A stretch of 64,000 nt of DNA from the IMG/VR virus record IMGVR_UViG_2513237251_000004; one strand, 5' to 3'. Shown here piece by piece: positions 50,532 to 60,442 of this stretch. Every line of letters starts with the position of its first letter. Position 1 is the stretch's first letter. This DNA comes from a virus (lineage: Duplodnaviria > Heunggongvirae > Uroviricota > Caudoviricetes). Under the pieces are notes generated by a model, which saw nothing but the letters and a program-made list of their open reading frames with translations, made no database searches and had not been told where the DNA came from. Position numbers and translations under genes: made by a program.

Positions 50532-50564
50532 TTCACGATATTCCATTAATACCATTTCCTGATG

Positions 50565-50589
50565 CCCGGCCATTGTGCCGGGTTTTTTT
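50565..50589 (+). terminator. Rho-independent terminator preceding the giant gene
   Basis: CCCGGCCATTGTGCCGGG plus TTTTTTT. Confidence 0.55.
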
Positions 50590-50600
50590 ATGGAGTCTGT

Positions 50601-53600
50601 ATGGCCTATTCAGAGGAACAGCGTCCTGAGGCGCAACTCGGTAACCAGAATCGTAACAGCCTGAACATTCAGCAACCCGGCGAAACTGACAGCTATGAAG
50701 CATTTTTCTCTGATCCGAATCGCTGGAAGGATAACAGTACGTCGTTCAGCCTGGGCGATGTATTGCCAACAATGGGTAAAGGTTTCGCCCAGTCCGTCCG
50801 GGGAACAGGGGAAATGGCCCGTGGACTCGGTGATGCGATGATTCAGAGCCCGGTAAAAACAGGGGCGCGTATTTTAAATGAGTTCAGCCGTATGGGGCTG
50901 CCGGGTGTCGCAACTGTGCAGGATATTTTTGCCGGTGGCAGCAGGGGGGCTGATGAGGTCATCGATACCCTGCCTGATGGCAAAAACGCGGTTACTGATA
51001 TTGTCGGTAAAGGTCTGAAGGCAACCGGTAAGGCTGTCAGTGATGGTGCCAAAGCCACTGATGAATGGCTGACCGGTAAGATGTCGCCGGGTGCAGTTCG
51101 TGCGCTGAATACGCCGATGACCGAAGGCTATAATGATTCTGCGGTCTGGGTGGCGAAGGGTGTAAACCTGATTGGTGCGCTTGTACCTGATATGGTTGCT
51201 GGCGGTGTGGCTAGAAAGGTGGGTGATGTCACACTGCGAAAAATGCTGACCGCCGGGCTGGAGAAAAAATACATCGCGGCAGGGATGCAGCCGGAAAGAG
51301 CCACGGCACTGGCAGCAGAAGCTGTCGATAAAAAAATGCCGGATTTATTCCAGGCGGGCCTGATCACCCATTCCACTGTAAGTGCACAGGGGCAGAGTGC
51401 AATGGCGGCAGCAGATGCTGTTCTTAATGCTGATTACTCTGAGCTGGCGCAGTCACCGAAATTTCAGCAGACGTTTTTGTCCATTGACGCCGACCCGCAG
51501 CACGCACAGCTTACTGATCGCCAGAAAATGGATCTGGCAAAAGAGCGTGTTGCCGATGAGGTGCGCGCGCAGCTGGCAACCGATCCTGAATTGCTGGCTG
51601 TGAATGCCATGGCGGCAAAACTGGGTGACGCACAACTGTTTAATCTGGTGACACGAGGCACAGCGAAGACCGTTAAAAGCGGCATTGTCAGAAATGCCAC
51701 GGAACAGGGGGCGATTAATGCGGCGCAGGGCGGCTATTCACGCTATCAGGAAAACACGGCATTGCGTGAGACCGCCGGAATGGGTGTGTCACCGTGGGAG
51801 GGCGTGGCTGACGCAACGATCGAAGGTGCAGCCTTTGGTGCTGCGATGGGGGCTCCATTCGGTGCGGTTGCCGGATATCGTGGCAGACGTCAGGCCGCAG
51901 AAGAAACCGCCATGCGTGATGCTGAAACCGTGCAGCAGGACGACGCAGCCCCGCAACCAGAATCTGTTGATCCGGTGGCGCAGCAGCGTGAATCCATGCA
52001 GGGCATGAATCGCGAGCAGCTTCTGGAGCAGTATGCTGATGCGGATATGGCAACAGAGGGTGACGCATCCGCAGCTCATCGCCGGGAAGCTGCCAGCCAG
52101 TTGTTGAATGAACTGGACGAACAGACGAAGCGACAGGCTGTGATGAATGAGCTGAAGGCGAAGCCGCGTTCTGAACTGCTTGAGGAATACCGCAGACTCA
52201 GCCAGAAAGAGGGGCGCACCGAGACTGAAGAACAACAGTTTCAGGCAATACGAGAAGTCATTCGCCCACAACAGGAAGTGACGCCGGAAGCACAGTCACA
52301 GCCTGAAAATGCGGAGGATGGTAACGGGAGCATTTACCCGACGGTGCGGTTCCGGGACCCGAATGAAGTCCGCATTGAAATTAACGGGAATGGTGCGTCC
52401 AGACCAGCGGAACGCATTGAGAAGGTGCGCCCGGACAACCGTTATTTCACGGATGAGAAAAGCGCCATGGGGAGTGATGTTTTCCGTAATGCCGCCGCCA
52501 CCGGCCTGAAACCGTCCGTAGTGAAGAAAGGCGAGAATCAGTATGCCGTTGAAATGGATAATCCTGCGTTCTCTGAAGATGTGGCAACGGAAACCATTAA
52601 CACCCTGGCTGACGGAGAGCGTATTGCTGATGCTGACCCGATGGAGCAGCCCGCGTTCATGCGTGACCCGCGATTCCGTGGTTTCACGGGGGATGATACG
52701 GAGGTACAGGCCCGCCTTGCCCGTGGCAACGCGCCGACGGCAGAGGAGCTTGTACGTTCACAGATGGCTGAAGGTGATGCCGGTCCGACAGCACAGGAGT
52801 TAACTGAGCGTCCACGCCTGCCCGCTCCCGGCGATATTCATCCCGGACAGGGATATCCGTTACCGGGAGAAGTGGCGCGTACGCCGGATGAAAATCAGGC
52901 CGGACGTGGTGGTCGTTTTACCACAACCGGTGAGGTTAAGGGCCAGAGTTTCCAGAAAGGACAAGCTCCGGCACCGGAAAACGCCGCTGGTCGCCAGGGG
53001 GAAACACTCGAGGGTGACATGGTTCGTCGTGGTCTGCCGTCACCGGATGCGCAGAACGCGACAGCACCGGTACGTGAAGGGCTACCGGCTCCTGACATTG
53101 CGCGTAATGTTCGTATGCCTCAGCCTGAATCACTTCCCCGCACTGTACGGGACTCACTGCCTGAGCTTGCACAGCAGGCAGAAGTACGCCGACAGGCCGG
53201 AGGAAATCGTGACATCCCGCAGCCTGAGACAATCGCACCTGAATCTGAAACAACTGTCTCTACTGACAGGGAAGCTACCGTGCGCGGAGGTGAAGTCAGG
53301 GGCAAAAAAATTGAAGACTTTGGTGAAGAAATTAAGGGCGCGGCAAAACACCGTTATGCACAGCTTGCTGAAACACTGGGTAAAACGCTGGAAGACAGGG
53401 ATTATGCCACGCAGCCGCTGAGCAAACTGTTCCCGAAACCGGACTACGCAAAACTGGCGAACGAAGGTGCTGATGCTGATACCCTGGCAATGATAGCGCT
53501 GTATCGTAGCGATATTCCGGCGAAGACGAAACACAATACGGCAGGCTGGGGGGAGAGCATAAAAAAAGTACGACACAGTGTATCGGAAATGCTGAACGGA

Positions 53601-56600
53601 ACGGTCAGCGCGAAACGCCTCGCAGAATGGATGGAAGGCAGAATGCCCTCCCGTTACGCGGATACCTGGCAACTGTTACGCACTCTGCCACCCTCACAGA
53701 TGGACAGGGCTTCTGCTTATCGGGTGGTATCGGGTGTGTATCAGGCGGCAGGAGGGAAGCGTTACGATCCGCCACAGAAACTTTATTCACTGCGCAATAA
53801 GGACAATAAGGGGAGTAACCTCTTTTTCTCGGAAAGCAGGGATGAATTACTGGCAAAGGCGAAAGTCTGGTTTGCAGAGCAGGAGGAAAAATCACAGGCG
53901 AAAGGTGATGAAAAAACAGCACCGTCACCGGATGACAAAATCCGCTTTGACGTTTACCGGAATACCCGCAGTGGCGATATTTTTATCGCTTACGGTAAAA
54001 ACAAAATGCGGGTGAGAGGTGGCTTTAAGTCAGCCAGTGATGCGCGTAAGTACATTGATTCACATCGTGATGAGCTTGTTCGTCATGTGAAGGAGATGCG
54101 GGAGATTTCGCGTGAGGAGCAGCGCAACGCCACCAACCGCGACCGTACCGGACCAGAACGCCGCAAGGGGAATGTTTCACCGGAGCAGTTCAGTGATGCG
54201 TTTGGTTTCCGTGGTGTGCAGTTTGGTAACTACGTGGAAGGTCCGCGTCGTCAGGCTGATTTGAACCGGGCTTATGACTCGCTGCATGACCTTGCGGAAG
54301 TACTGAATGTACCGACAAAAGCGCTTTCCCTGAACGGTCGTCTTGGCCTGGCATTTGGTGCCCGTGGTAAGGGTAAGGCGGCGGCACACTATGAGTCAGG
54401 TGAGGTGGCAATCAACCTGACAAAAGGTAACGGACCGGGTGCGCTGGCGCACGAATGGTTCCATTCTCTGGATAATTATTTTGGTCGTTATGACGTTTCC
54501 AATGACGGGAAAATTACGTCAGGTGGCGACTTTATGACGGAAGCACAGCGTGTCAGGCGCATATTTAAAGACGGCAGGTATGTTGATGCTGAATATCCGG
54601 TACGTCAGGAGGTTTACGACGCTTTTAAAGGTGTGATTCAGGCCATTAAAAACAGTGACATGCCGCGTCGTTCAGCGCTTCTCGATAAGGTGCGCTCAAA
54701 ACCGTACTGGTCAACGGATGTTGAAATGGCGGCACGTGCCTTTGAGCGTTATGTTCAGGATAAGGCGCGTATGGCTGGCGTGGAGAATGATTATCTGGTC
54801 AATATCCGTAAGGCACCTGAGCACAACACAGATAACACCTACGCTTATCCGACGAATGCGGAACTGGATGGCGGTATTCGTGAGGCATTCGATCACCTGT
54901 TCCGCACCCTGAAAACCCGTGAGACGGACAAGGGCGTTGCGTTTTATTCCCGTAAGGGCGTTACCCGCACACCTGAAGGTAATCTCATTTCGGATGTTAA
55001 CCGTAGTGCGGAAGCCAAAGGCAGCCCGGTCCCGCAGGTTGAAGCGGTTGCCCGTGGCGTGATGAGCGGCATTAAGGACAGTGACCTGAAGGTCCGTGTG
55101 GTGAAGTCACAGAAAGAGGCTGAAGCGCTGGCGGGTGAATTGTTCGATGGTTACGGCAGGGTGCACGCATTCTATCGTCCGGATAAACGAGAAATTGTCC
55201 TGGTGGCGGATAACATCCCTGACGGGCGGACCGTTCGCGAGAAGCTGCGTCACGAGATCATTCACCATGCCATGGAGCATGTTGTCACACCAGCGGAATA
55301 TCAGACGATTATCAAAACCGTGCTGAAAACCCGCGACAGTGATAACGTCACCATCCGTGAAGCCTGGCGTAAGGTTGATGCTTCCTATGGTAAGGAATCA
55401 CCGGAAGTACAGGCGGGTGAATTTCTGGCACATATGGCGGAGAAACAGCCGAATAAATTCGTGGCGGCATGGGAGCGTGTTGTTGCCCTGGTCAAAGGGG
55501 TACTGCGTCGTACGGGGTTACTGAAGCCGACGGAACTGAACGATATCAGACTTGTTCGCGAGACCATCCGTACGTTAGGCCAGCGTGTGCGGGAAGGTTA
55601 CACGCCGCGTGAGGATGGCGCGGGCGCATCGTTTCAGTACTCCCGTAGTGGTAAACGTGATCCGTTCAAAGTGCCGGAAGGTGAGGGCGAGCGTTATCGT
55701 GATGACCTTGCCAGAATGATGAAATCTCTGCGCACCACAGATTTAACGGTAAACATCGGGCGTACGCCGCCGGTATTGCGTCACCTTGGTGCACCGGATT
55801 TGCCGCTGGTTATTTCCCGCGATACTGTGCGGAAGGCCACCAATGGTGTGAAACATGTGGTGCCGATGGATGTTATCGAGAGACTACCGGAACTGATGCA
55901 CGATCCGGATGCAATTTACCGCTCAGCGACAGAAAGAAATGCGGTTGTGATGCTGCTTGATGCCGTGGATAAAAATGGTGATCCGGTGGTGTCAGCGGTA
56001 CACATGAAGGCTGTCCGGTCGCGTCTGGAAATCAACAAGGTAGCTTCTGTTTACGGTACAGAAAATGGAAAAAAACTGAAGAGTATGGAAATGACCGGGT
56101 TAACGTTGTACCGGAGAGAAAAATTAAGCCGCGATAACCTTCTGCACAGAGGGCTCCAATTGCCCAAAGGGGAACATTCTTATCGCGGCTCTGCGGATAA
56201 AATACTCTATCCTGAAGATATTCGCAAGGGGCCGTATTACTCCCGTACCAGCAGTCTGACACCGGAAGAGACAATTGCATCGCGTTTTGTGCGCCAGATG
56301 CAGGATAAATTCCAGGTGCTGAAAGCTGTTCAGGAGAATATCCGTAAAACTGGCGGCAAAGTGGACGACAGTAACAACGCTTATATGGCGGAAGAACTCT
56401 TCCACGGGAAGGCGGAAAACGACCTGAACGTGATGAAGGAGCGCTACGTTCAGCCACTGGCTAAATTACTGGCGGACTACAAAATTGCGCAGGCCGATCT
56501 GGATGAGTACCTCTACGCCCGTCACGCGCCGGAACGTAACGCGCATATCGCGAAAATCAACCCGAAAATGCCGGACGGCGGTTCGGGGATGACCAACGCG

Positions 56601-58982
56601 GAAGCGGCGGAAATCATGCAGCGTGTACGTAACAGTGGCAAACAGGCACAGTATGACCGTCTGGCAGGGATTATTGACGATATGCTGGCCCGTCGCCGTG
56701 AGCTTATCCGTGAGGCCGGACTTGAAGAGAACGGTGTGGTGGATGCCTGGCAGAACGCCTACCGTTACTACGTTCCCCTGAAAGGTCAGGATGTTGACGG
56801 TGTGGTGTCACTGCCCCGTACAGGTAAGGGCTTCACCATCGGCGGACGTGAAAGCAGGCAGGCCATGGGGCGTGCATCCCGGGCACAGTCTCCGTCCACT
56901 CAGGCGATACAGGACCTGAGCGAATCGCTGATCCGCCATCGCAAAAACGAAGTGGGTAACGCCTTCCTGAAACTGGTGCAGGATAATCCCGACAAGGATT
57001 ACTGGCAGGTATTCACCGATGACAGACCGGATACCATGCGGACGATTGCAGAGCGCAAGGACCAGGAAACTGGTGAAACCATTCGCGAAGTTGTCGAACG
57101 CCCTGTACCGATGGCAATGATGGCAGACCGGTACTTCACCACCAAAAAGAACGGCAAAACGTACTACATCAAACTCCATGATCCGCGCCTGATGCGTGCG
57201 ATGAAGAGTATGGGACCGGAAACCAGCAATGCCTTTGTTCGTACGCTGGGGAAAGTTAACCGCTTCCTGGCAACGGTGAACACGTCGTATAACCCGGAAT
57301 TCCTGGTCAGTAACTTCATCCGTGACGTGCAGACGGCGGTGATGAACCTGAAGGCGGAGCAGGGAAGGAGCGACGGTAAACTGAAAGGGCTGGATAACTT
57401 ATCCGCCCTGGCTGTGGTGAAAGACAGCCGTTCTGCCATGTCAGCCGTATACGCCAGTCTGCGTGGTAAAACCCTCACGGGAAAAGGTGCACAGTGGCAG
57501 AAGGTGTGGAAAGAGTTTGTTGAGGACGGAGGGAAAACCGGCTGGTTTAACATGGGTGACCTTGAAGGCCAGCAGAAGGAAATGGATCGCCTTGTCTCAC
57601 TGGCGAAGGGGGGATGGAAAGGCCAGAGTATCGGTGCATGGAATTCGTTCCTTAACCTTGTCGAGGATGCCAACGGTGCGGTTGAAAACGCTCTGCGTCT
57701 TTCTGCCTATAAGCACGCCCGTGATGCCGGTTTGTCACGCCAGCAGGCGGCGTCTCTTGCCAAAAACATGACGGTGAACTTTAACCGTCGTGGTGAGCAG
57801 GGGGCGCTGATGAATTCGCTGTACATGTTCGCCAACGCCAGCATTCAGGGAACGGCAAATCTGGTGAGAACGCTCGGACATCTTAATGGTGAGGGACCTT
57901 TACTGGAGCGCCTTCGCTGGAAGAATCTGAATGTTCCGCAGAAAATCGCGCTTGCCGCTGTGGGAGCAGGTTATCTGCTTGGCTCGCTTAACCGCAGCGT
58001 GGCGGGTGAGGATGATGACGGGGTTAACTGGTATGACAAGGTGCCGTCTCATGTGAAAGAGCGTAACCTCGTCATTATGAAATCGGTGTTCGGGGGCAAG
58101 GCCGGAGAGTACTGGAGTATTCCTCTGCCTTACGGGTACAACGTTTTCTTCCTGCTCGGGCATACTGCTGAAGGTGTGGCGGCGGGTGACCTGACGGCGT
58201 CCCGTGCTGCCGGTAATGTTGTTGGTGGTGTGCTTGGTGCATTCAGCCCGATTGGCAGTGAGACGTCGGAAACACTGTCCGGGGCATTGCTGAAAAATGC
58301 AGCGCCGACCATTCTGCGTCCGTTTGCGAACCTTGCCATGAATGAAAACTTCATGGGGGCGCAGATTTACCAGGAGAACATGCCGTTTGGTACACCAAAA
58401 CCTGACAGCCAGCTGGGAAGACGTTCAACGCCAGAAGCGTACAAGGCGTTTGCATCCTGGCTGAATGCGTTCTCAGGTGGCAGCCAGTACCGTCCCGGCG
58501 CGGTGGATATCACACCGGAATCGCTGAAATTCTGGATTGACTATATCTCCGGAGGGACAGGGCGCTTCATTTCCAAAACCACGGATGCGGCGGTGAAATC
58601 GCTGAATGGTATTGATATACCGGAACAGCAGGTGCCCTTCCTGGGGAAAATTTCGGGGGAGGTGATGCCGTATGCAGACCAGCAGAAGATGTACGACCGG
58701 ATGACAGAGATTGCGCAGTATCACGCAGAGCTGAAGAGTCTGACCGGTGCAGAAAGAACGGCGTTCATTGACGAGAACAACGGAAAATTGTCGATGAACG
58801 GGCTTATGCAGGATACCCGGAAGAGACTGAAGGATTTGCGTAAACAGCGTGATGCCATTTACGCCGACAGTACTCTCAGTCTGGCGCAACAGTCGGCGAT
58901 GGTGAAATCGGTAGAGCGGGATATGAAAATTGCCGTGGATCGGTTTAACCGCGAGTACAACAAAAAAGTGGGAGTGGATTAA
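50601..58982 (+). CDS. Giant virion-associated protein (2793 aa) with internal HExxH zincin-like motif
   Basis: ATG at 50601 after terminator with GGAG RBS; uninterrupted frame of 8.4 kb; GALAHEWFHSLDNYFG near residue 1290. Confidence 0.65.
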   Translation: MAYSEEQRPEAQLGNQNRNSLNIQQPGETDSYEAFFSDPNRWKDNSTSFSLGDVLPTMGKGFAQSVRGTGEMARGLGDAMIQSPVKTGARILNEFSRMGLPGVATVQDIFAGGSRGADEVIDTLPDGKNAVTDIVGKGLKATGKAVSDGAKATDEWLTGKMSPGAVRALNTPMTEGYNDSAVWVAKGVNLIGALVPDMVAGGVARKVGDVTLRKMLTAGLEKKYIAAGMQPERATALAAEAVDKKMPDLFQAGLITHSTVSAQGQSAMAAADAVLNADYSELAQSPKFQQTFLSIDADPQHAQLTDRQKMDLAKERVADEVRAQLATDPELLAVNAMAAKLGDAQLFNLVTRGTAKTVKSGIVRNATEQGAINAAQGGYSRYQENTALRETAGMGVSPWEGVADATIEGAAFGAAMGAPFGAVAGYRGRRQAAEETAMRDAETVQQDDAAPQPESVDPVAQQRESMQGMNREQLLEQYADADMATEGDASAAHRREAASQLLNELDEQTKRQAVMNELKAKPRSELLEEYRRLSQKEGRTETEEQQFQAIREVIRPQQEVTPEAQSQPENAEDGNGSIYPTVRFRDPNEVRIEINGNGASRPAERIEKVRPDNRYFTDEKSAMGSDVFRNAAATGLKPSVVKKGENQYAVEMDNPAFSEDVATETINTLADGERIADADPMEQPAFMRDPRFRGFTGDDTEVQARLARGNAPTAEELVRSQMAEGDAGPTAQELTERPRLPAPGDIHPGQGYPLPGEVARTPDENQAGRGGRFTTTGEVKGQSFQKGQAPAPENAAGRQGETLEGDMVRRGLPSPDAQNATAPVREGLPAPDIARNVRMPQPESLPRTVRDSLPELAQQAEVRRQAGGNRDIPQPETIAPESETTVSTDREATVRGGEVRGKKIEDFGEEIKGAAKHRYAQLAETLGKTLEDRDYATQPLSKLFPKPDYAKLANEGADADTLAMIALYRSDIPAKTKHNTAGWGESIKKVRHSVSEMLNGTVSAKRLAEWMEGRMPSRYADTWQLLRTLPPSQMDRASAYRVVSGVYQAAGGKRYDPPQKLYSLRNKDNKGSNLFFSESRDELLAKAKVWFAEQEEKSQAKGDEKTAPSPDDKIRFDVYRNTRSGDIFIAYGKNKMRVRGGFKSASDARKYIDSHRDELVRHVKEMREISREEQRNATNRDRTGPERRKGNVSPEQFSDAFGFRGVQFGNYVEGPRRQADLNRAYDSLHDLAEVLNVPTKALSLNGRLGLAFGARGKGKAAAHYESGEVAINLTKGNGPGALAHEWFHSLDNYFGRYDVSNDGKITSGGDFMTEAQRVRRIFKDGRYVDAEYPVRQEVYDAFKGVIQAIKNSDMPRRSALLDKVRSKPYWSTDVEMAARAFERYVQDKARMAGVENDYLVNIRKAPEHNTDNTYAYPTNAELDGGIREAFDHLFRTLKTRETDKGVAFYSRKGVTRTPEGNLISDVNRSAEAKGSPVPQVEAVARGVMSGIKDSDLKVRVVKSQKEAEALAGELFDGYGRVHAFYRPDKREIVLVADNIPDGRTVREKLRHEIIHHAMEHVVTPAEYQTIIKTVLKTRDSDNVTIREAWRKVDASYGKESPEVQAGEFLAHMAEKQPNKFVAAWERVVALVKGVLRRTGLLKPTELNDIRLVRETIRTLGQRVREGYTPREDGAGASFQYSRSGKRDPFKVPEGEGERYRDDLARMMKSLRTTDLTVNIGRTPPVLRHLGAPDLPLVISRDTVRKATNGVKHVVPMDVIERLPELMHDPDAIYRSATERNAVVMLLDAVDKNGDPVVSAVHMKAVRSRLEINKVASVYGTENGKKLKSMEMTGLTLYRREKLSRDNLLHRGLQLPKGEHSYRGSADKILYPEDIRKGPYYSRTSSLTPEETIASRFVRQMQDKFQVLKAVQENIRKTGGKVDDSNNAYMAEELFHGKAENDLNVMKERYVQPLAKLLADYKIAQADLDEYLYARHAPERNAHIAKINPKMPDGGSGMTNAEAAEIMQRVRNSGKQAQYDRLAGIIDDMLARRRELIREAGLEENGVVDAWQNAYRYYVPLKGQDVDGVVSLPRTGKGFTIGGRESRQAMGRASRAQSPSTQAIQDLSESLIRHRKNEVGNAFLKLVQDNPDKDYWQVFTDDRPDTMRTIAERKDQETGETIREVVERPVPMAMMADRYFTTKKNGKTYYIKLHDPRLMRAMKSMGPETSNAFVRTLGKVNRFLATVNTSYNPEFLVSNFIRDVQTAVMNLKAEQGRSDGKLKGLDNLSALAVVKDSRSAMSAVYASLRGKTLTGKGAQWQKVWKEFVEDGGKTGWFNMGDLEGQQKEMDRLVSLAKGGWKGQSIGAWNSFLNLVEDANGAVENALRLSAYKHARDAGLSRQQAASLAKNMTVNFNRRGEQGALMNSLYMFANASIQGTANLVRTLGHLNGEGPLLERLRWKNLNVPQKIALAAVGAGYLLGSLNRSVAGEDDDGVNWYDKVPSHVKERNLVIMKSVFGGKAGEYWSIPLPYGYNVFFLLGHTAEGVAAGDLTASRAAGNVVGGVLGAFSPIGSETSETLSGALLKNAAPTILRPFANLAMNENFMGAQIYQENMPFGTPKPDSQLGRRSTPEAYKAFASWLNAFSGGSQYRPGAVDITPESLKFWIDYISGGTGRFISKTTDAAVKSLNGIDIPEQQVPFLGKISGEVMPYADQQKMYDRMTEIAQYHAELKSLTGAERTAFIDENNGKLSMNGLMQDTRKRLKDLRKQRDAIYADSTLSLAQQSAMVKSVERDMKIAVDRFNREYNKKVGVD

Positions 58983-59488
58983 CAGAAATGGCCCCGTACG
59001 GAAGTGCGGGGCTGATTAAGAAATAAACACTCATTGACCTGTAATAACCGGAGCTATTAACATATAGTCAGAAGAGCATTTCATGTGATACAGAGAGCCG
59101 ATTTATGTTTAATGAAGAAAAAGTTGCGCAAATGGCAGCGTATTTGCTGAAAAAGCATGGCGGATCTATGCGTTTCATTAAGCTGAAGCAGCAACGGTAA
59201 TGGCGAATAGCATTTATGAGCAAAATAATCTTGATATGTTATTAGGCGATCTGATGTAACCGGGATGATGTTCACCCCTTATCGCCGGGGAACAATACCG
59301 GCAATCAGAATTGCGGATGGAACTATTCAGGCCCACGATGATATCGATGAGGAGTTTTTTCAGCCAGTATTGGATGGCTTTCTTATATCCAAATATACGC
59401 CATTTGACATCCTCCACGCCCTGAAGGACGGGGTTTTACAGCGCACCGGATAAGATTCGGTGTTTTGTTGAAAAATACTGTGATAACA

Positions 59489-59515
59489 AACAGAAAACCC
59501 GTCAGTAAGACGGGC
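59489..59515 (-). terminator. Rho-independent terminator after BOF gene (minus strand)
   Basis: CCCGTCTTACTGACGGG hairpin followed by TTTTCTGTTT on minus strand. Confidence 0.55.
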
Positions 59516-59532
59516 TTAGCAAGCTGGGACGG

Positions 59533-59877
59533 TTACTTTAATAATTTCAGTGCCTTTACATCCACTTCAACACTGCTCAGGTCTTTATCAATTTCACCCT
59601 CAATTCTTACTTTGTCTTTCGGAGAAACATTCTGACCGGCCCATATGCTGTCATCGATATCCGTGACAATTGTCCCGCTATTGTCACGAAACTCATAACG
59701 TTCATCACCCACTTTTTTAACGATGCTCCCTTCAAGGATAACCCATGCATCATCCTTCAGTTCTTTTGCCTGCGCTACTGTTGAACGCTCTGCTTCAGGC
59801 CCTTGGAAACCGCCCTGCTGTGCAAAAGCGCCAAAAGACACACCAGAAATAAGTGCTGCAATCAATACCTTTTTCAT
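59533..59877 (-). CDS. BOF-family periplasmic OB-fold protein (YgiW/YdeI-like)
   Basis: Signal peptide plus ...DDAWVILEGSIVKKVGDERYEFRDNSGTIVTDID... resembling YgiW. Confidence 0.7.
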   Translation of the reverse strand: MKKVLIAALISGVSFGAFAQQGGFQGPEAERSTVAQAKELKDDAWVILEGSIVKKVGDERYEFRDNSGTIVTDIDDSIWAGQNVSPKDKVRIEGEIDKDLSSVEVDVKALKLLK

Positions 59878-59996
59878 TCATAGTCCTCTTTCAGAGATGA
59901 ACATTCAAACAGCATTTTCAGTATGGTAAAGCGCGGGTGCGTTGAGGATGCCTGACACATCAGAGGTGGCGGGAGATTACTCCCCCGCTTGGTCTC

Positions 59997-60152
59997 TTAC
60001 TTCTCAGATTCGTAGTCTACGAAGACAGCGACCTCCGTCTGACCGGTTCGGATTCGCACCTCGCAGAGGTCTTTCCTCGTTACCAGTGCCGTCACTATGA
60101 CGGTTAAACAGATGACGATCAGGGCGATTAACATCGCCTTTTGCTGCTTCAT
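59997..60152 (-). CDS. hok: Hok-family type I toxin
   Basis: MKQQKAMLIALIVICLTVIVTALVTRKDLCEVRIRTGQTEVAVF... from ATG at 60152 with AAGGAG RBS; near-identical to HokC/Gef. Confidence 0.8.
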   Translation of the reverse strand: MKQQKAMLIALIVICLTVIVTALVTRKDLCEVRIRTGQTEVAVFVDYESEK

Positions 60153-60442
60153 AGCCTGCTTCTCCTTGCCTTTCGGCACGTAAGAGGCTAACCTACATGT
60201 GTTCAGCATGGATTGAGCCTCAGATTAATGTTAAGCGTCTTGCCGGACGCGTAATGTTAACTGGGGCTTTTCTCTATCTGCCGTTGGTGTTCATGCCCGA
60301 GGCAGATAGCCTCAAGCACCCGCAGCAATTCTACTTAACTCTCCTTTTCCCGCAAACCGTTTTTATCTCCAGCGACAAATCGAATACACAACCAGCACCA
60401 CCGCCATTACTGTTCCTACATTTGCGAATGCTTCAGGCCAGG

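What the first reader, a model, noticed from the sequence alone, without database searches (positions are those of the whole stretch)
59081..60442. Right-end cargo: canonical hok toxin, BOF periplasmic protein with own terminator, and fragmented ORFs
Just past the giant gene, on the minus strand, are a YgiW-like BOF protein (59533-59877) with its own terminator and a full-length hok (59997-60152) with a long leader. Between 59105 and 59456 three short in-frame pieces (MFNEEKVAQMAAYLLKKHGGSMRFIKLKQQR / MANSIYEQNNLDMLLGDLM / MMFTPYRRGTIPAIRIADG...) look like a decayed gene; the first piece loosely recalls the start of Panacea-domain antitoxin-like proteins, but this is weak. In the phage circle these lie downstream of int, so they would be transcribed early.
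Basis: partly seen in the sequence, partly recalled or inferred. Interest (0 to 1): 0.45.

Follow-up and report, generated by a model that had tools for sequence, protein, structure and literature searches.

The report
Stx2 phage 933W right-end cargo
This is the already-annotated accessory gene cluster at the right end of Shiga-toxin phage 933W: a working hok/sok killer module, a YgiW-like periplasmic protein gene, and, as the only new point, the wreck of a second two-gene toxin-antitoxin module, so it is largely ordinary.

Summary
The window is the 933W/Sp5 Stx2 prophage, 100% identical to AF125520.

- **hokW/mokW/sokW (59934-60321):** canonical. The same locus in Sp5 has been characterised experimentally (Takada 2021).
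- **BOF gene (59533-59877, L0136):** a YgiW homologue with a signal peptide and its own terminator.
- **"Decayed gene" (59105-59456):**
  - 59105-59185 encodes residues 1-27 of a PanA (Panacea/SocA) antitoxin.
  - 59182-59260 encodes its last ~25 residues in another frame.
  - L0135 (59265-59453) is residues ~1-13 fused in frame to residues ~90-128 of the 135-aa partner.
- **The partner:** it directly follows PanA in 17 of 18 loci (the 18th is cut by masked sequence) and is predicted to have a MazF/PemK fold.
- **What is lost:** both the Panacea domain and the toxin barrel are deleted, so the module is dead.
- **L0135 tail:** it comes from an IS200/IS605 (IS609-type) end remnant.
- **Intact relatives:** none close. 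Every 933W-type copy carries the same wreck.

Low interest; this is an annotation refinement.

The parts
59034..59063 (+). Promoter-like site (TTGACC-18-TAACAT) 42 nt upstream of the PanA remnant start codon. Probably the relic of the module's own promoter.
   Evidence: Consensus scan. The region is 96-98% conserved in the POCJ13 and cM8a remnants. Function is inferred.
59105..59200 (+). ORF of 31 aa. Codons 1-27 (59105-59185) are the N-terminus of a PanA (Panacea/SocA-like) antitoxin. The last 4 codons and the stop are out-of-frame read-through past a deletion junction.
   Evidence: PanA family HMM positions 1-27, E 2e-11. BLASTP 59-74% identity to 12 PanA N-termini, plus 63% over 24 residues to a 13th. 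PHROG 28947/3658. Longer remnants in POCJ13 and E. coli cM8a continue as ...IKLM(K)LMYLSDRKAMES. The Pfam Panacea domain starts at residue 27 in intact relatives, so the domain itself is missing here.
59182..59260 (+). C-terminal tail of the same PanA gene (AEAATVMANSIYEQNNLDMLLGDLM*), now in a different frame. The deletion junction lies in the shared GCTGA at about 59182-59186.
   Evidence: End-anchored ungapped BLOSUM62 score against 15 PanA tails: 1 of 20,000 shuffles reached it (fraction 5e-5), and it ranks 1st of 1481 pre-stop peptides in the window. The conserved E-Q-x-x-L motif is in register with the stop. The 4-nt spacing to the next start codon is like intact modules. Gapped BLAST alone is not significant (E 0.3).
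59265..59453 (+). L0135 (62 aa): remnant of the 135-aa MazF-fold partner (putative toxin). Residues 3-13 match toxin residues 5-15 and residues 15-56 match toxin residues about 90-131. About 75 core codons were lost in frame, and the last ~13 codons and the stop come from an IS end.
   Evidence: BLASTP to the YeP3 partner: E 7e-8 for the C-terminal part and 0.004 for the N-terminal part. hhalign versus the family alignment: 97% probability, E 5.6e-11. Family HMM E 2.4e-8. The YeP3 partner also hits PHROG 1925, the L0135 family.
59404..59455 (-). Remnant of the tnpA-proximal (left) end of an IS200/IS605-family element of IS609 type, including its subterminal hairpin CCCTG-AAGGA-CGGGG. Only about 43 bp (59413-59455) match IS copies; no transposase is present.
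   Evidence: 92-96% identical stretches in E. coli genomes, lying right after tnpA of tnpA/insQ(tnpB) elements in two different contexts; similarity ends at GGATAA, where the flanks diverge. The same ~50 bp also occurs downstream of HK97 tfa and in Stx1 phages.
59443..59473 (+). Terminator-like hairpin (GCACCGGATAAGATTCGGTGT) plus T-run that closes the plus-strand (late/remnant) transcription unit. Half of the stem is IS-end sequence.
   Evidence: sequence.
59485..59517 (-). Terminator-like hairpin (AAGCCCGTCTTACTGACGGGTTT) plus T-run, downstream of the BOF gene.
59533..59877 (-). L0136: YgiW/YdeI-family bacterial OB-fold (BOF) protein, 114 aa, with an N-terminal signal peptide (MKKVLIAALISGVSFGAFA).
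   Evidence: Pfam BOF E 5e-33. NCBIfam NF033674 E 4e-40 and TIGR00156 at 110.8 bits against a 108.15 cut-off. E. coli YgiW structure 1NNX E 3e-29. Annotated in 933W, Sp5 and RefSeq. The signal peptide is read from the sequence.
59934..60321 (-). Full-length hokW mRNA, with the 5' tac element GGGUGCUUGAGG paired to the 3' fbi element CCUCAACGCACCC.
   Evidence: The Rfam sok model begins at 60321. The minimum-free-energy fold of 60321-59928 closes the 5' end on the 3' end, -158.8 kcal/mol, z -6.8. The exact transcript ends are inferred.
59997..60209 (-). mokW (70 aa, 59997-60209) overlapping hokW (51 aa, 59997-60152).
   Evidence: This stretch has no mismatch with the experimentally tested Sp5 locus (1 mismatch in the 2001 bp compared, at 59635).
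60201..60271 (+). sokW antisense RNA (71 nt).
   Evidence: 933W annotation 58664-58734 plus the 1537 offset. Takada 2021 describes a 71-nt complementarity with the hokW 5' UTR.

Best explanation
Window 59034-60321 is the accessory cargo at the right end of the Stx2 prophage 933W/Sp5. It holds three unrelated items and one scar.

**1. Dead type II toxin-antitoxin module (59105-59453).** The ancestor was a bicistron of about 975 bp: a 186-190-aa PanA antitoxin (Panacea/SocA domain) followed, overlapping by 4 nt or within 2-27 nt, by a 126-141-aa protein with a MazF/PemK-like fold, presumably an RNase toxin that PanA binds and neutralises.
- One deletion removed PanA codons ~28-162, which is the whole Panacea domain, and shifted the frame.
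- A second, in-frame deletion removed toxin codons ~14-89, which hold most of the beta strands of the predicted barrel and the invariant His residues.
- The toxin's last codons were replaced by the terminal ~43 bp of an IS609-type (IS200/IS605) element, which also supplies half of a terminator hairpin.
- Neither product can fold as its ancestor did, so the module is a fossil.

**2. L0136.** A secreted YgiW-like OB-fold protein with its own terminator. It is probably a lysogenic-conversion gene that adds envelope or stress tolerance. This role is inferred from the family and was not tested.

**3. hokW/mokW/sokW.** A complete type I toxin-antitoxin locus.
- The stable hok mRNA is kept closed by 5'-3' pairing, and Sok antisense RNA blocks mok-coupled hok translation.
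- This mechanism is known from R1 hok/sok. Only the sequence and folding features were checked here.
- In Sp5, published work shows that sokW RNA disappears on RecA-dependent induction. HokW is then made and goes to the inner membrane, lysis starts about 40 min earlier, and phage yield doubles.
For: **Identity**
- 100% identical to AF125520 (933W) and to many O157 genomes.
- 1 mismatch in 2001 bp against Sp5.

**PanA remnant**
- for the window; for the longer remnants in POCJ13 and cM8a.

**Toxin remnant**
-.

**Intact two-gene modules**
- Found in phages YeP3, ST13-OXA48phi12.5 and Lys8385Vzw.
- A PanA-like ORF lies directly upstream of the partner in 17 of the 18 loci examined, from Gamma-, Beta- and Alphaproteobacteria. 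In the 18th (L023) the upstream ORF starts like PanA and is then cut by masked sequence.
- Pfam SocA_Panacea was confirmed on 11 of them, E 1e-19 to 1e-27.

**Partner fold**
- AlphaFold2 mean pLDDT 92.8.
- 48 of the 50 best PDB matches are MazF-family toxins: probability mostly 0.9-1.00, target-normalised TM mostly 0.5-0.67, E 5e-3 and weaker.
- The best viral matches are mainly PemK-like proteins and endoribonucleases.

**Precedent**
- PanA paired with MazF-like RNase toxins has been validated experimentally (PMC8832971).

**IS end**
-.

**hok**
-, plus experiments in PMC8621323.

**BOF**
-.
Against: - No closely related intact PanAT was found. The best intact relatives share only ~60-74% identity over the 27 N-terminal PanA residues and 26-54% over 24-44 aligned residues of the toxin C-terminal part. 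The deletion end points are therefore known only to within a few codons.
- The match of L0135's first 13 residues is weak on its own (E 0.004 pairwise).
- The PanA tail assignment rests on an end-anchored score test, not on a standard search (BLAST E 0.3).
- The toxin role and RNase activity of the 135-aa family are inferred from fold and gene context. Sequence profiles hit no Pfam, NCBIfam or PDB family, and the family's invariant histidines do not resemble known MazF catalytic residues.
- L0135 is an intact 62-codon ORF preserved in all 933W-type copies. That is compatible with recent common descent but does not exclude a retained function.
- Nothing is known about L0136 expression or function in the phage.
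Confidence: 0.85

Rival explanations
1. L0135, perhaps together with the 31-aa PanA stub, is a domesticated small protein and not a fossil. The retained C-terminal helices of a MazF-fold toxin could bind a resident PanA or toxin, acting as a decoy or anti-defence factor against related PanAT systems of the host or of competing phages.
For: The ORF is intact and the deletion is in frame. It sits behind a promoter-like site and is followed by a terminator. It is conserved unchanged in 45 phage records, about 100 E. coli genomes and 8 IMG/VR contigs, and has its own PHROG family.
Against: All copies are 98-100% identical at the protein level (99-100% at the DNA level), so conservation reflects recent ancestry and gives no signal of selection. 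Its last ~13 residues are IS-derived sequence. RefSeq PGAP does not call it in EDL933. The upstream antitoxin gene is frameshifted, which is typical of decay. No expression data were found.
Confidence: 0.07
2. The three pieces are remains of one single decayed gene.
For: The pieces are contiguous and on the same strand.
Against: Piece 1 and piece 2 match the two ends of PanA, while piece 3 matches a different protein. That protein is a separate gene downstream of PanA in all 18 loci examined.
Confidence: 0.03
3. The short ORFs are chance ORFs in a non-coding spacer between the late operon and the cargo genes.
For: Pfam finds nothing in them and they are short.
Against: Family-specific HMM, BLAST and hhalign matches have E values of 1e-8 to 1e-11, in the right order, orientation and spacing. 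Pfam misses piece 1 only because the retained 27 residues precede the Pfam domain boundary.
Confidence: 0.02

Closest known systems
hok/sok of plasmid R1 and hokW-sokW of Sakai prophage 5 (Takada et al. 2021, PMC8621323)
   Same: The locus has no mismatch with the Sp5 locus that was tested (1 mismatch in the 2001 bp compared, outside hok). It shares the Hok peptide, the overlapping mok, the antisense sok and the 5'-3' closed mRNA.
   Different: Nothing differs from Sp5. Compared with R1, HokW is 44% identical to Hok, and the reported role is helping lysis and phage release on induction rather than plasmid maintenance.
PanA:PanT (Panacea) type II toxin-antitoxin systems with MazF/PemK-like RNase toxins, such as the Pseudomonas moraviensis and Bifidobacterium ruminantium PanAT pairs (Kurata et al. 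2022, PMC8832971)
   Same: The intact relatives have the same gene order (PanA first, toxin second, overlapping or nearly abutting), a stand-alone Panacea antitoxin of ~186 aa, and a toxin whose MazF-like nature is visible only at fold or profile level. They are frequently found on prophages.
   Different: In 933W both genes are gutted, so nothing can work. Homology between this 135-aa partner family and the two validated MazF-like PanTs was not tested because their sequences were not at hand. The family's invariant residues (HLH, H66, H71) are not the known MazF catalytic residues.
E. coli YgiW (PDB 1NNX), YdeI, and Salmonella VisP: periplasmic BOF stress-tolerance proteins
   Same: L0136 aligns over 94 residues with YgiW (E 3e-29), has a signal peptide, and passes the Pfam and NCBIfam thresholds.
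   Different: It is phage-borne, shorter (114 aa against 130 aa for the YgiW precursor), and not next to qseBC. Its function in the lysogen is untested.
IS609 / IS200-IS605 family left end and its solo remnants
   Same: About 43 bp are 92-96% identical to the tnpA-proximal terminus, including the subterminal hairpin.
   Different: There is no tnpA, tnpB or right end. It is a scar, and part of it has been reused as the stop codon region of L0135 and as a terminator stem.

Membership tests
Hok/Gef type I toxin-antitoxin (hok/mok/sok) | Small hydrophobic Hok peptide matching the family profile | tested here: met
   Pfam HOK_GEF E 1.1e-22, 79.8 bits against a cut-off of 22. NCBIfam Hok family E 1.5e-14, but below its curated cut-off.
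Hok/Gef type I toxin-antitoxin (hok/mok/sok) | Overlapping mok reading frame upstream of and in frame with hok | tested here: met
   ORF 59997-60209, 70 aa, ending with Hok.
Hok/Gef type I toxin-antitoxin (hok/mok/sok) | sok antisense region and conserved leader RNA structure | tested here: met
   Rfam RF01794 at 113.5 bits against a gathering score of 59, full model length.
Hok/Gef type I toxin-antitoxin (hok/mok/sok) | Long-range 5' tac / 3' fbi pairing of the full-length mRNA | tested here: met
   The minimum-free-energy fold pairs nt 1-12 with the 3' end, z -6.8. This is a prediction only.
Hok/Gef type I toxin-antitoxin (hok/mok/sok) | Toxicity of Hok and neutralisation by Sok RNA | not testable with these tools
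   Shown experimentally for the same Sp5 locus (PMC8621323; identity).
PanA (Panacea/SocA, PF13274) antitoxin | Presence of the Panacea domain | tested here: not met
   No Pfam hit in the window pieces. The domain spans residues 27-140 in intact relatives and is deleted here. Only residues 1-27 and the last ~25 remain, so this is a pseudogene of a family member, not a member.
PanA (Panacea/SocA, PF13274) antitoxin | Two-gene arrangement with an adjacent toxin gene | tested here: met
   The remnant order PanA-N, PanA-C, toxin-N, toxin-C matches intact modules. A PanA-like ORF precedes the partner in 17 of 18 related loci, and in the 18th it is cut by masked sequence.
MazF/PemK (CcdB/MazF fold) toxins: the intact 135-aa partner family | SH3-like barrel fold of MazF | tested here: met
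   AlphaFold2 pLDDT 92.8. 48 of the 50 best PDB matches are MazF-family toxins, with probability up to 1.00, target-normalised TM up to 0.67, and E 5e-3 and weaker. The best viral matches are mainly PemK-like. This holds for the intact relatives only; in L0135 most of the barrel is deleted.
MazF/PemK (CcdB/MazF fold) toxins: the intact 135-aa partner family | Sequence-profile membership (Pfam PemK_toxin) | tested here: not met
   No Pfam, NCBIfam or PDB sequence hit. The family exists only as PHROG 19071, of unknown function.
MazF/PemK (CcdB/MazF fold) toxins: the intact 135-aa partner family | Endoribonuclease activity and toxicity neutralised by the cognate antitoxin | not testable with these tools
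   Inferred from fold and context only.
BOF / YgiW-YdeI stress-tolerance proteins | BOF domain above curated thresholds | tested here: met
   Pfam 113.7 bits against 25.8. NF033674 at 136.4 against 35. TIGR00156 at 110.8 against 108.15. 1NNX E 3e-29.
BOF / YgiW-YdeI stress-tolerance proteins | Export to the periplasm | tested here: inconclusive
   A typical signal peptide with an AFA-Q cleavage motif is visible in the sequence. No predictor was run.
IS200/IS605 insertion sequence | Y1 transposase TnpA and both ends with subterminal hairpins | tested here: not met
   Only ~43 bp of one end are present, so this is a remnant and not an element.

The most novel reading that the evidence does not exclude
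L0135 is not junk but a toxin-derived mini-protein. It would consist of the N-terminal strand plus the two C-terminal helices of a MazF-fold PanT, which 933W-type Stx phages keep to interfere with PanAT-type toxin-antitoxin or defence modules of the host or of rival prophages.
Probability: 0.05. Interest if true: 0.5.

Novelty: new member of a known kind. Interest (0 to 1): 0.2.

Why it matters
Mostly it tidies the annotation of a medically important phage.

- L0135 has been a 'hypothetical protein' in 933W, Sp5 and dozens of Stx phage records since 1999, and has its own PHROG. It can now be labelled as the remnant of a PanA-associated MazF-fold toxin.
- The unannotated 59105-59260 stretch can be labelled as the remnant of its Panacea antitoxin.
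- This shows that the ancestor of these phages carried two toxin-antitoxin systems side by side, one type II and one type I, and kept only hok/sok.
- It also points to a sizeable unnamed family: 2553 cluster representatives at E <= 0.001. These are 135-aa MazF-fold proteins that follow PanA and have no Pfam or NCBIfam model, which makes an easy target for a toxicity/neutralisation test.

Nothing here changes the understanding of Stx phage biology.

Tried and rejected
**Search for a closely related intact homologue, to place the deletion end points at nucleotide level. None was found.**
- blastn (distant mode) and tblastn against phages.
- blastn against 5,426 E. coli genomes.
- Word-indexed protein searches with L0135 and with the PanA stub. 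These returned only 31-70-aa truncated proteins.
- An exact 23-mer scan of IMG/VR. All 8 contigs carry the same remnant at 99.4-100% identity.

**Other negative results.**
- Pfam on the raw fragments gave nothing.
- Sequence-profile searches of the partner family against the PDB, Pfam and NCBIfam gave nothing meaningful.
- The promoter scan found no sigma-70-like site for L0136 on the minus strand, so its promoter remains unknown.
- The weak Rfam hits (snoRNA-like, HgcC, Acido-Lenti-1) are far below their gathering scores and were dismissed.

**Considered and dropped.** I considered that the ~50-bp stretch shared with HK97 and Stx1 phages might be a late-operon terminator module. It is better explained as an IS200/IS605 end.
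Full report
**What the region is.** Window 58900-60500 is 100% identical to phage 933W (AF125520), to Stx2 converting phage I, to many 'PA' Stx2 phages and to the EDL933 chromosome. Window coordinates equal 933W coordinates plus 1537.
- The 933W record of 1999 already annotates:
  - L0134, the 2806-aa gene ending at 58982;
  - L0135 (59265-59453, +);
  - L0136, 'similar to YgiW and YdeI' (59533-59877, -);
  - hokW, mokW and the sokW RNA.
- RefSeq calls the same genes 'LPD38 domain-containing protein', 'NirD/YgiW/YdeI family stress tolerance protein' and 'Hok/Gef family protein'. It does not call L0135 in EDL933.
- The Sakai prophage Sp5 (VT2-Sakai) differs from the window by 1 base in 2001, at 59635 inside the BOF gene.

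**Check of the observation.**
- Hok is 51 aa (Pfam HOK_GEF E 1.1e-22) and the BOF protein is 114 aa (Pfam BOF E 5e-33).
- A terminator-like hairpin with a T-run lies on the minus strand at 59517-59495, just after the BOF stop. A second one lies on the plus strand at 59443-59463, so the two transcription units converge on a pair of terminators.
- The three short pieces are real but are not in frame. They start in three different frames.

**hok.**
- The Rfam sok model, which covers the hok leader, matches 60147-60321 over its full length at 113.5 bits, against a gathering score of 59.
- mokW (70 aa) overlaps hokW.
- The 394-nt RNA from 60321 to 59928 folds with its first 12 nt (GGGUGCUUGAGG) paired to CCUCAACGCACCC near the 3' end. 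This is the classical tac/fbi closure. The energy is -158.8 kcal/mol against -120 for shuffles, z -6.8.
  - HokW stops growth.
  - sokW RNA counteracts it, in a manner partly dependent on RNase III and Hfq.
  - hokW mRNA and sokW RNA are both present before induction.
  - After mitomycin C, sokW RNA disappears and HokW appears in the inner membrane in a RecA-dependent way, about 1 h before the endolysin.
  - Deleting the locus delays growth arrest by ~40 min and halves phage release.
- This part is already known.

**BOF gene.**
- L0136 passes NCBIfam NF033674 (136 bits against 35) and, narrowly, TIGR00156 (110.8 against 108.15).
- It aligns with E. coli YgiW of known structure (1NNX) over 94 residues, E 3e-29.
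- It begins with a typical signal peptide, read from the sequence.
- No sigma-70-like promoter was found for it. Its start codon lies 57 nt beyond the predicted 3' end of hok mRNA.
- In a published EDL933 ciprofloxacin data set the neighbours RS07010 (20-fold) and RS07035 (43.5-fold) are induced. RS07020 (BOF) and RS07025 (hok) are absent from the table of differentially expressed genes.
The topology does allow it, because int is on the minus strand at the left end.
- The function of L0136 in the lysogen is untested. By family it is most likely an envelope or stress-tolerance moron.

**The 'fragmented ORFs': first leads.**
- Pfam finds nothing in them, but tblastn gave the key lead.
  - The first piece matches the start of a gene in Yersinia phages YeP2/YeP3 and Klebsiella phage ST13-OXA48phi12.5.
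  - L0135 weakly matches a point about 830 bp further on in the same Yersinia phages.
- There, two genes sit back to back: a 186-187-aa protein with a Pfam SocA_Panacea domain (E 8e-21 and 6e-27) and a 135-aa protein with no Pfam family. E. coli phages Lys8385Vzw and SKA5 carry the same pair.
- A genome-wide scan with the partner alignment gave 16 more loci, from Enterobacterales, Vibrionaceae, Sutterellaceae, methanotrophs and Alphaproteobacteria.
  - In 17 of the 18 loci examined a PanA-like ORF ends 4 nt inside, or 2-27 nt before, the partner's start. In the 18th (L023) the upstream ORF starts like PanA and is then cut by masked sequence.
  - Pfam confirmed Panacea on every one tested.

**Mapping the window onto this module.**
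- *PanA N-terminus.* 59105-59185 encodes PanA residues 1-27.
  - Family HMM E 2e-11.
  - 59-74% identity to 12 N-termini, plus 63% over 24 residues to a 13th.
  - These residues lie before the Pfam domain, which begins at residue 27. That explains the Pfam miss.
- *Divergence point.* The Shigella phages POCJ13 and 75/02 and E. coli cM8a keep longer stubs (...IKLMYLSDRKAMES...) and diverge from 933W at about 59186-59192.
- *PanA C-terminus.* From 59182 a different frame reads AEAATVMANSIYEQNNLDMLLGDLM*.
  - Anchored at the stop and aligned without gaps to 15 PanA tails, this peptide scores higher than all but 1 of 20,000 shuffles (fraction 5e-5).
  - It also scores higher than every other one of the 1481 pre-stop peptides in the window.
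  - It carries the conserved E-Q-x-x-L motif in register.
- *Junction.* The two homologous parts overlap in GCTGA, which suggests a deletion between short repeats. In cM8a the same spot holds three tandem copies of AAGCTGATG. The junction mechanism is inferred.
- *Toxin remnant.* Four nucleotides after that stop, L0135 begins.
  - Residues 3-13 align with partner residues 5-15, the conserved PYRKGT motif.
  - Residues 15-58 align with partner residues 91-134 (BLASTP E 7e-8 and 0.004; hhalign probability 97%, E 5.6e-11; HMM E 2.4e-8).
  - The YeP3 partner in turn hits the PHROG built from L0135.
- *Summary.* About 135 codons of PanA (out of frame) and about 75 codons of the partner (in frame) have been lost.

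**What the partner was.**
- The family alignment gives a confident AlphaFold2 model, mean pLDDT 92.8 and pTM 0.85.
- 48 of its 50 best PDB matches are MazF-family toxins (MazF-mt9, E. coli MazF, MoxT, YdcE and others). Probability is mostly 0.9-1.00, target-normalised TM mostly 0.5-0.67, and E 5e-3 and weaker.
- The best viral matches are mainly PemK-like proteins and endoribonucleases.
- Sequence profiles see no PDB, Pfam or NCBIfam relative.
- A full HMMER search finds 2553 cluster representatives at E <= 0.001, so this is a sizeable unnamed family.
- Kurata et al. 2022 validated PanA antitoxins paired with toxins that only HHpred recognises as MazF/PemK-like. The intact ancestor was therefore a known kind of system.
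- In L0135 the deleted stretch holds most of the beta strands of the predicted barrel and the family's invariant H22-L-H24, D56, H66 and H71. It cannot be a MazF-type toxin.

**The scar at the 3' end.**
- Positions 59413-59455 are 92-96% identical to stretches in E. coli genomes. In the copies examined these lie directly after tnpA of tnpA/insQ(tnpB) elements in different chromosomal contexts. One example is next to ydcL-tehB in K-12, the IS609 site as I recall it. Similarity stops at GGATAA, where the flanks diverge.
- This is the tnpA-proximal end of an IS200/IS605-family element with its subterminal hairpin.
- It supplies the last ~13 codons and the stop of L0135, and half of the plus-strand terminator stem.
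- A slightly longer version (59400/59404-59453) is shared with HK97, downstream of tfa, and with many Stx1 phages. Its extra 9-13 bp encode the PFDIL that aligns with the partner family's conserved TPFKI motif. Those phages may therefore carry the same toxin/IS junction as a smaller fossil. This is a suggestion only.

**Spread of the decayed state.**
- 45 phage records, about 100 E. coli genomes and 8 IMG/VR contigs carry the identical or 99.4% identical remnant.
- No intact close relative turned up in any collection searched.

**Verdict.**
The 'gene' is two genes, and the pieces are out of frame with each other.
- hok and the BOF gene are long annotated, and hokW-sokW is experimentally characterised.
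- The only new element is the assignment of L0135 and the upstream unannotated stretch to a doubly deleted PanA:MazF-fold toxin-antitoxin module with an IS-end scar.
- That is a useful annotation fix of low general interest.

Noticed in passing
window 59400-59455; also L004 (HK97) 1501-1554, L008 1201-1241, L009 1201-1243: About 43-54 bp match the tnpA-proximal end of IS609-type (IS200/IS605) elements. Similar stretches occur in many E. coli genomes. A slightly longer version recurs downstream of HK97 tfa and, on the opposite strand, in many Stx1 phages, including the old H-19B and 933J stx1 records. The extra 9-13 bp on its left encode PFDIL, which aligns with the conserved TPFKI end of the MazF-fold partner family, so these phages may share one toxin/IS deletion junction.
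   Followed up: partly
window 60363-60446 (-): A 27-codon ORF (MTWPEAFANVGTVMAVVLVVYSICRWR) encodes a single hydrophobic helix. Its ATG overlaps the TGA of upstream gene L0139 (ATGA), which looks like translational coupling. It has no PHROG hit. The homologous stretch in POCJ13 and cM8a has TAG at codon 3. It is not annotated in 933W.
   Followed up: partly
L007 (E. coli cM8a) 3642-3668: Three tandem copies of AAGCTGATG (KLMKLMKLM) sit exactly where the 933W PanA deletion junction lies. POCJ13 has one copy. This looks like a slippage-prone spot.
   Followed up: no
window 59533-60209 (L0136 and mokW): An Irish STEC case-control genome-wide association study (PMC11950266) reports that the joint presence of 'ygiW_2' and a mokC-like 'group_5720' is associated with haemolytic uraemic syndrome (adjusted odds ratio about 5.5). 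These two are very likely this adjacent phage gene pair, in which case the signal would be a marker of 933W-type Stx2a phages rather than an independent virulence factor. I could not check the sequences.
   Followed up: no
window 59635: This is the only difference from Sp5 (VT2-Sakai) across 58896-60896, and it lies inside the BOF gene. I did not check whether it is synonymous.
   Followed up: no
window 50562-58982 (+): Giant 2806-aa gene L0134, labelled as an LPD38 or LPD5 domain protein in RefSeq. It contains an HEWFH metalloprotease-like motif and ends in a GC-rich hairpin (58990-59013) without a T-run. It is 20-fold induced by ciprofloxacin in EDL933. It is not part of this finding.
   Followed up: no
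L003 (POCJ13) 3067-3334 and L007 (cM8a) 3567-3767: Other Sepvirinae carry an independently truncated PanA stub (60-66 aa) directly followed by ea-type early genes. They have no L0135, BOF gene or hok there, so the right-end cargo differs between Stx phage lineages while the PanA stub and its promoter-like site persist.
   Followed up: partly
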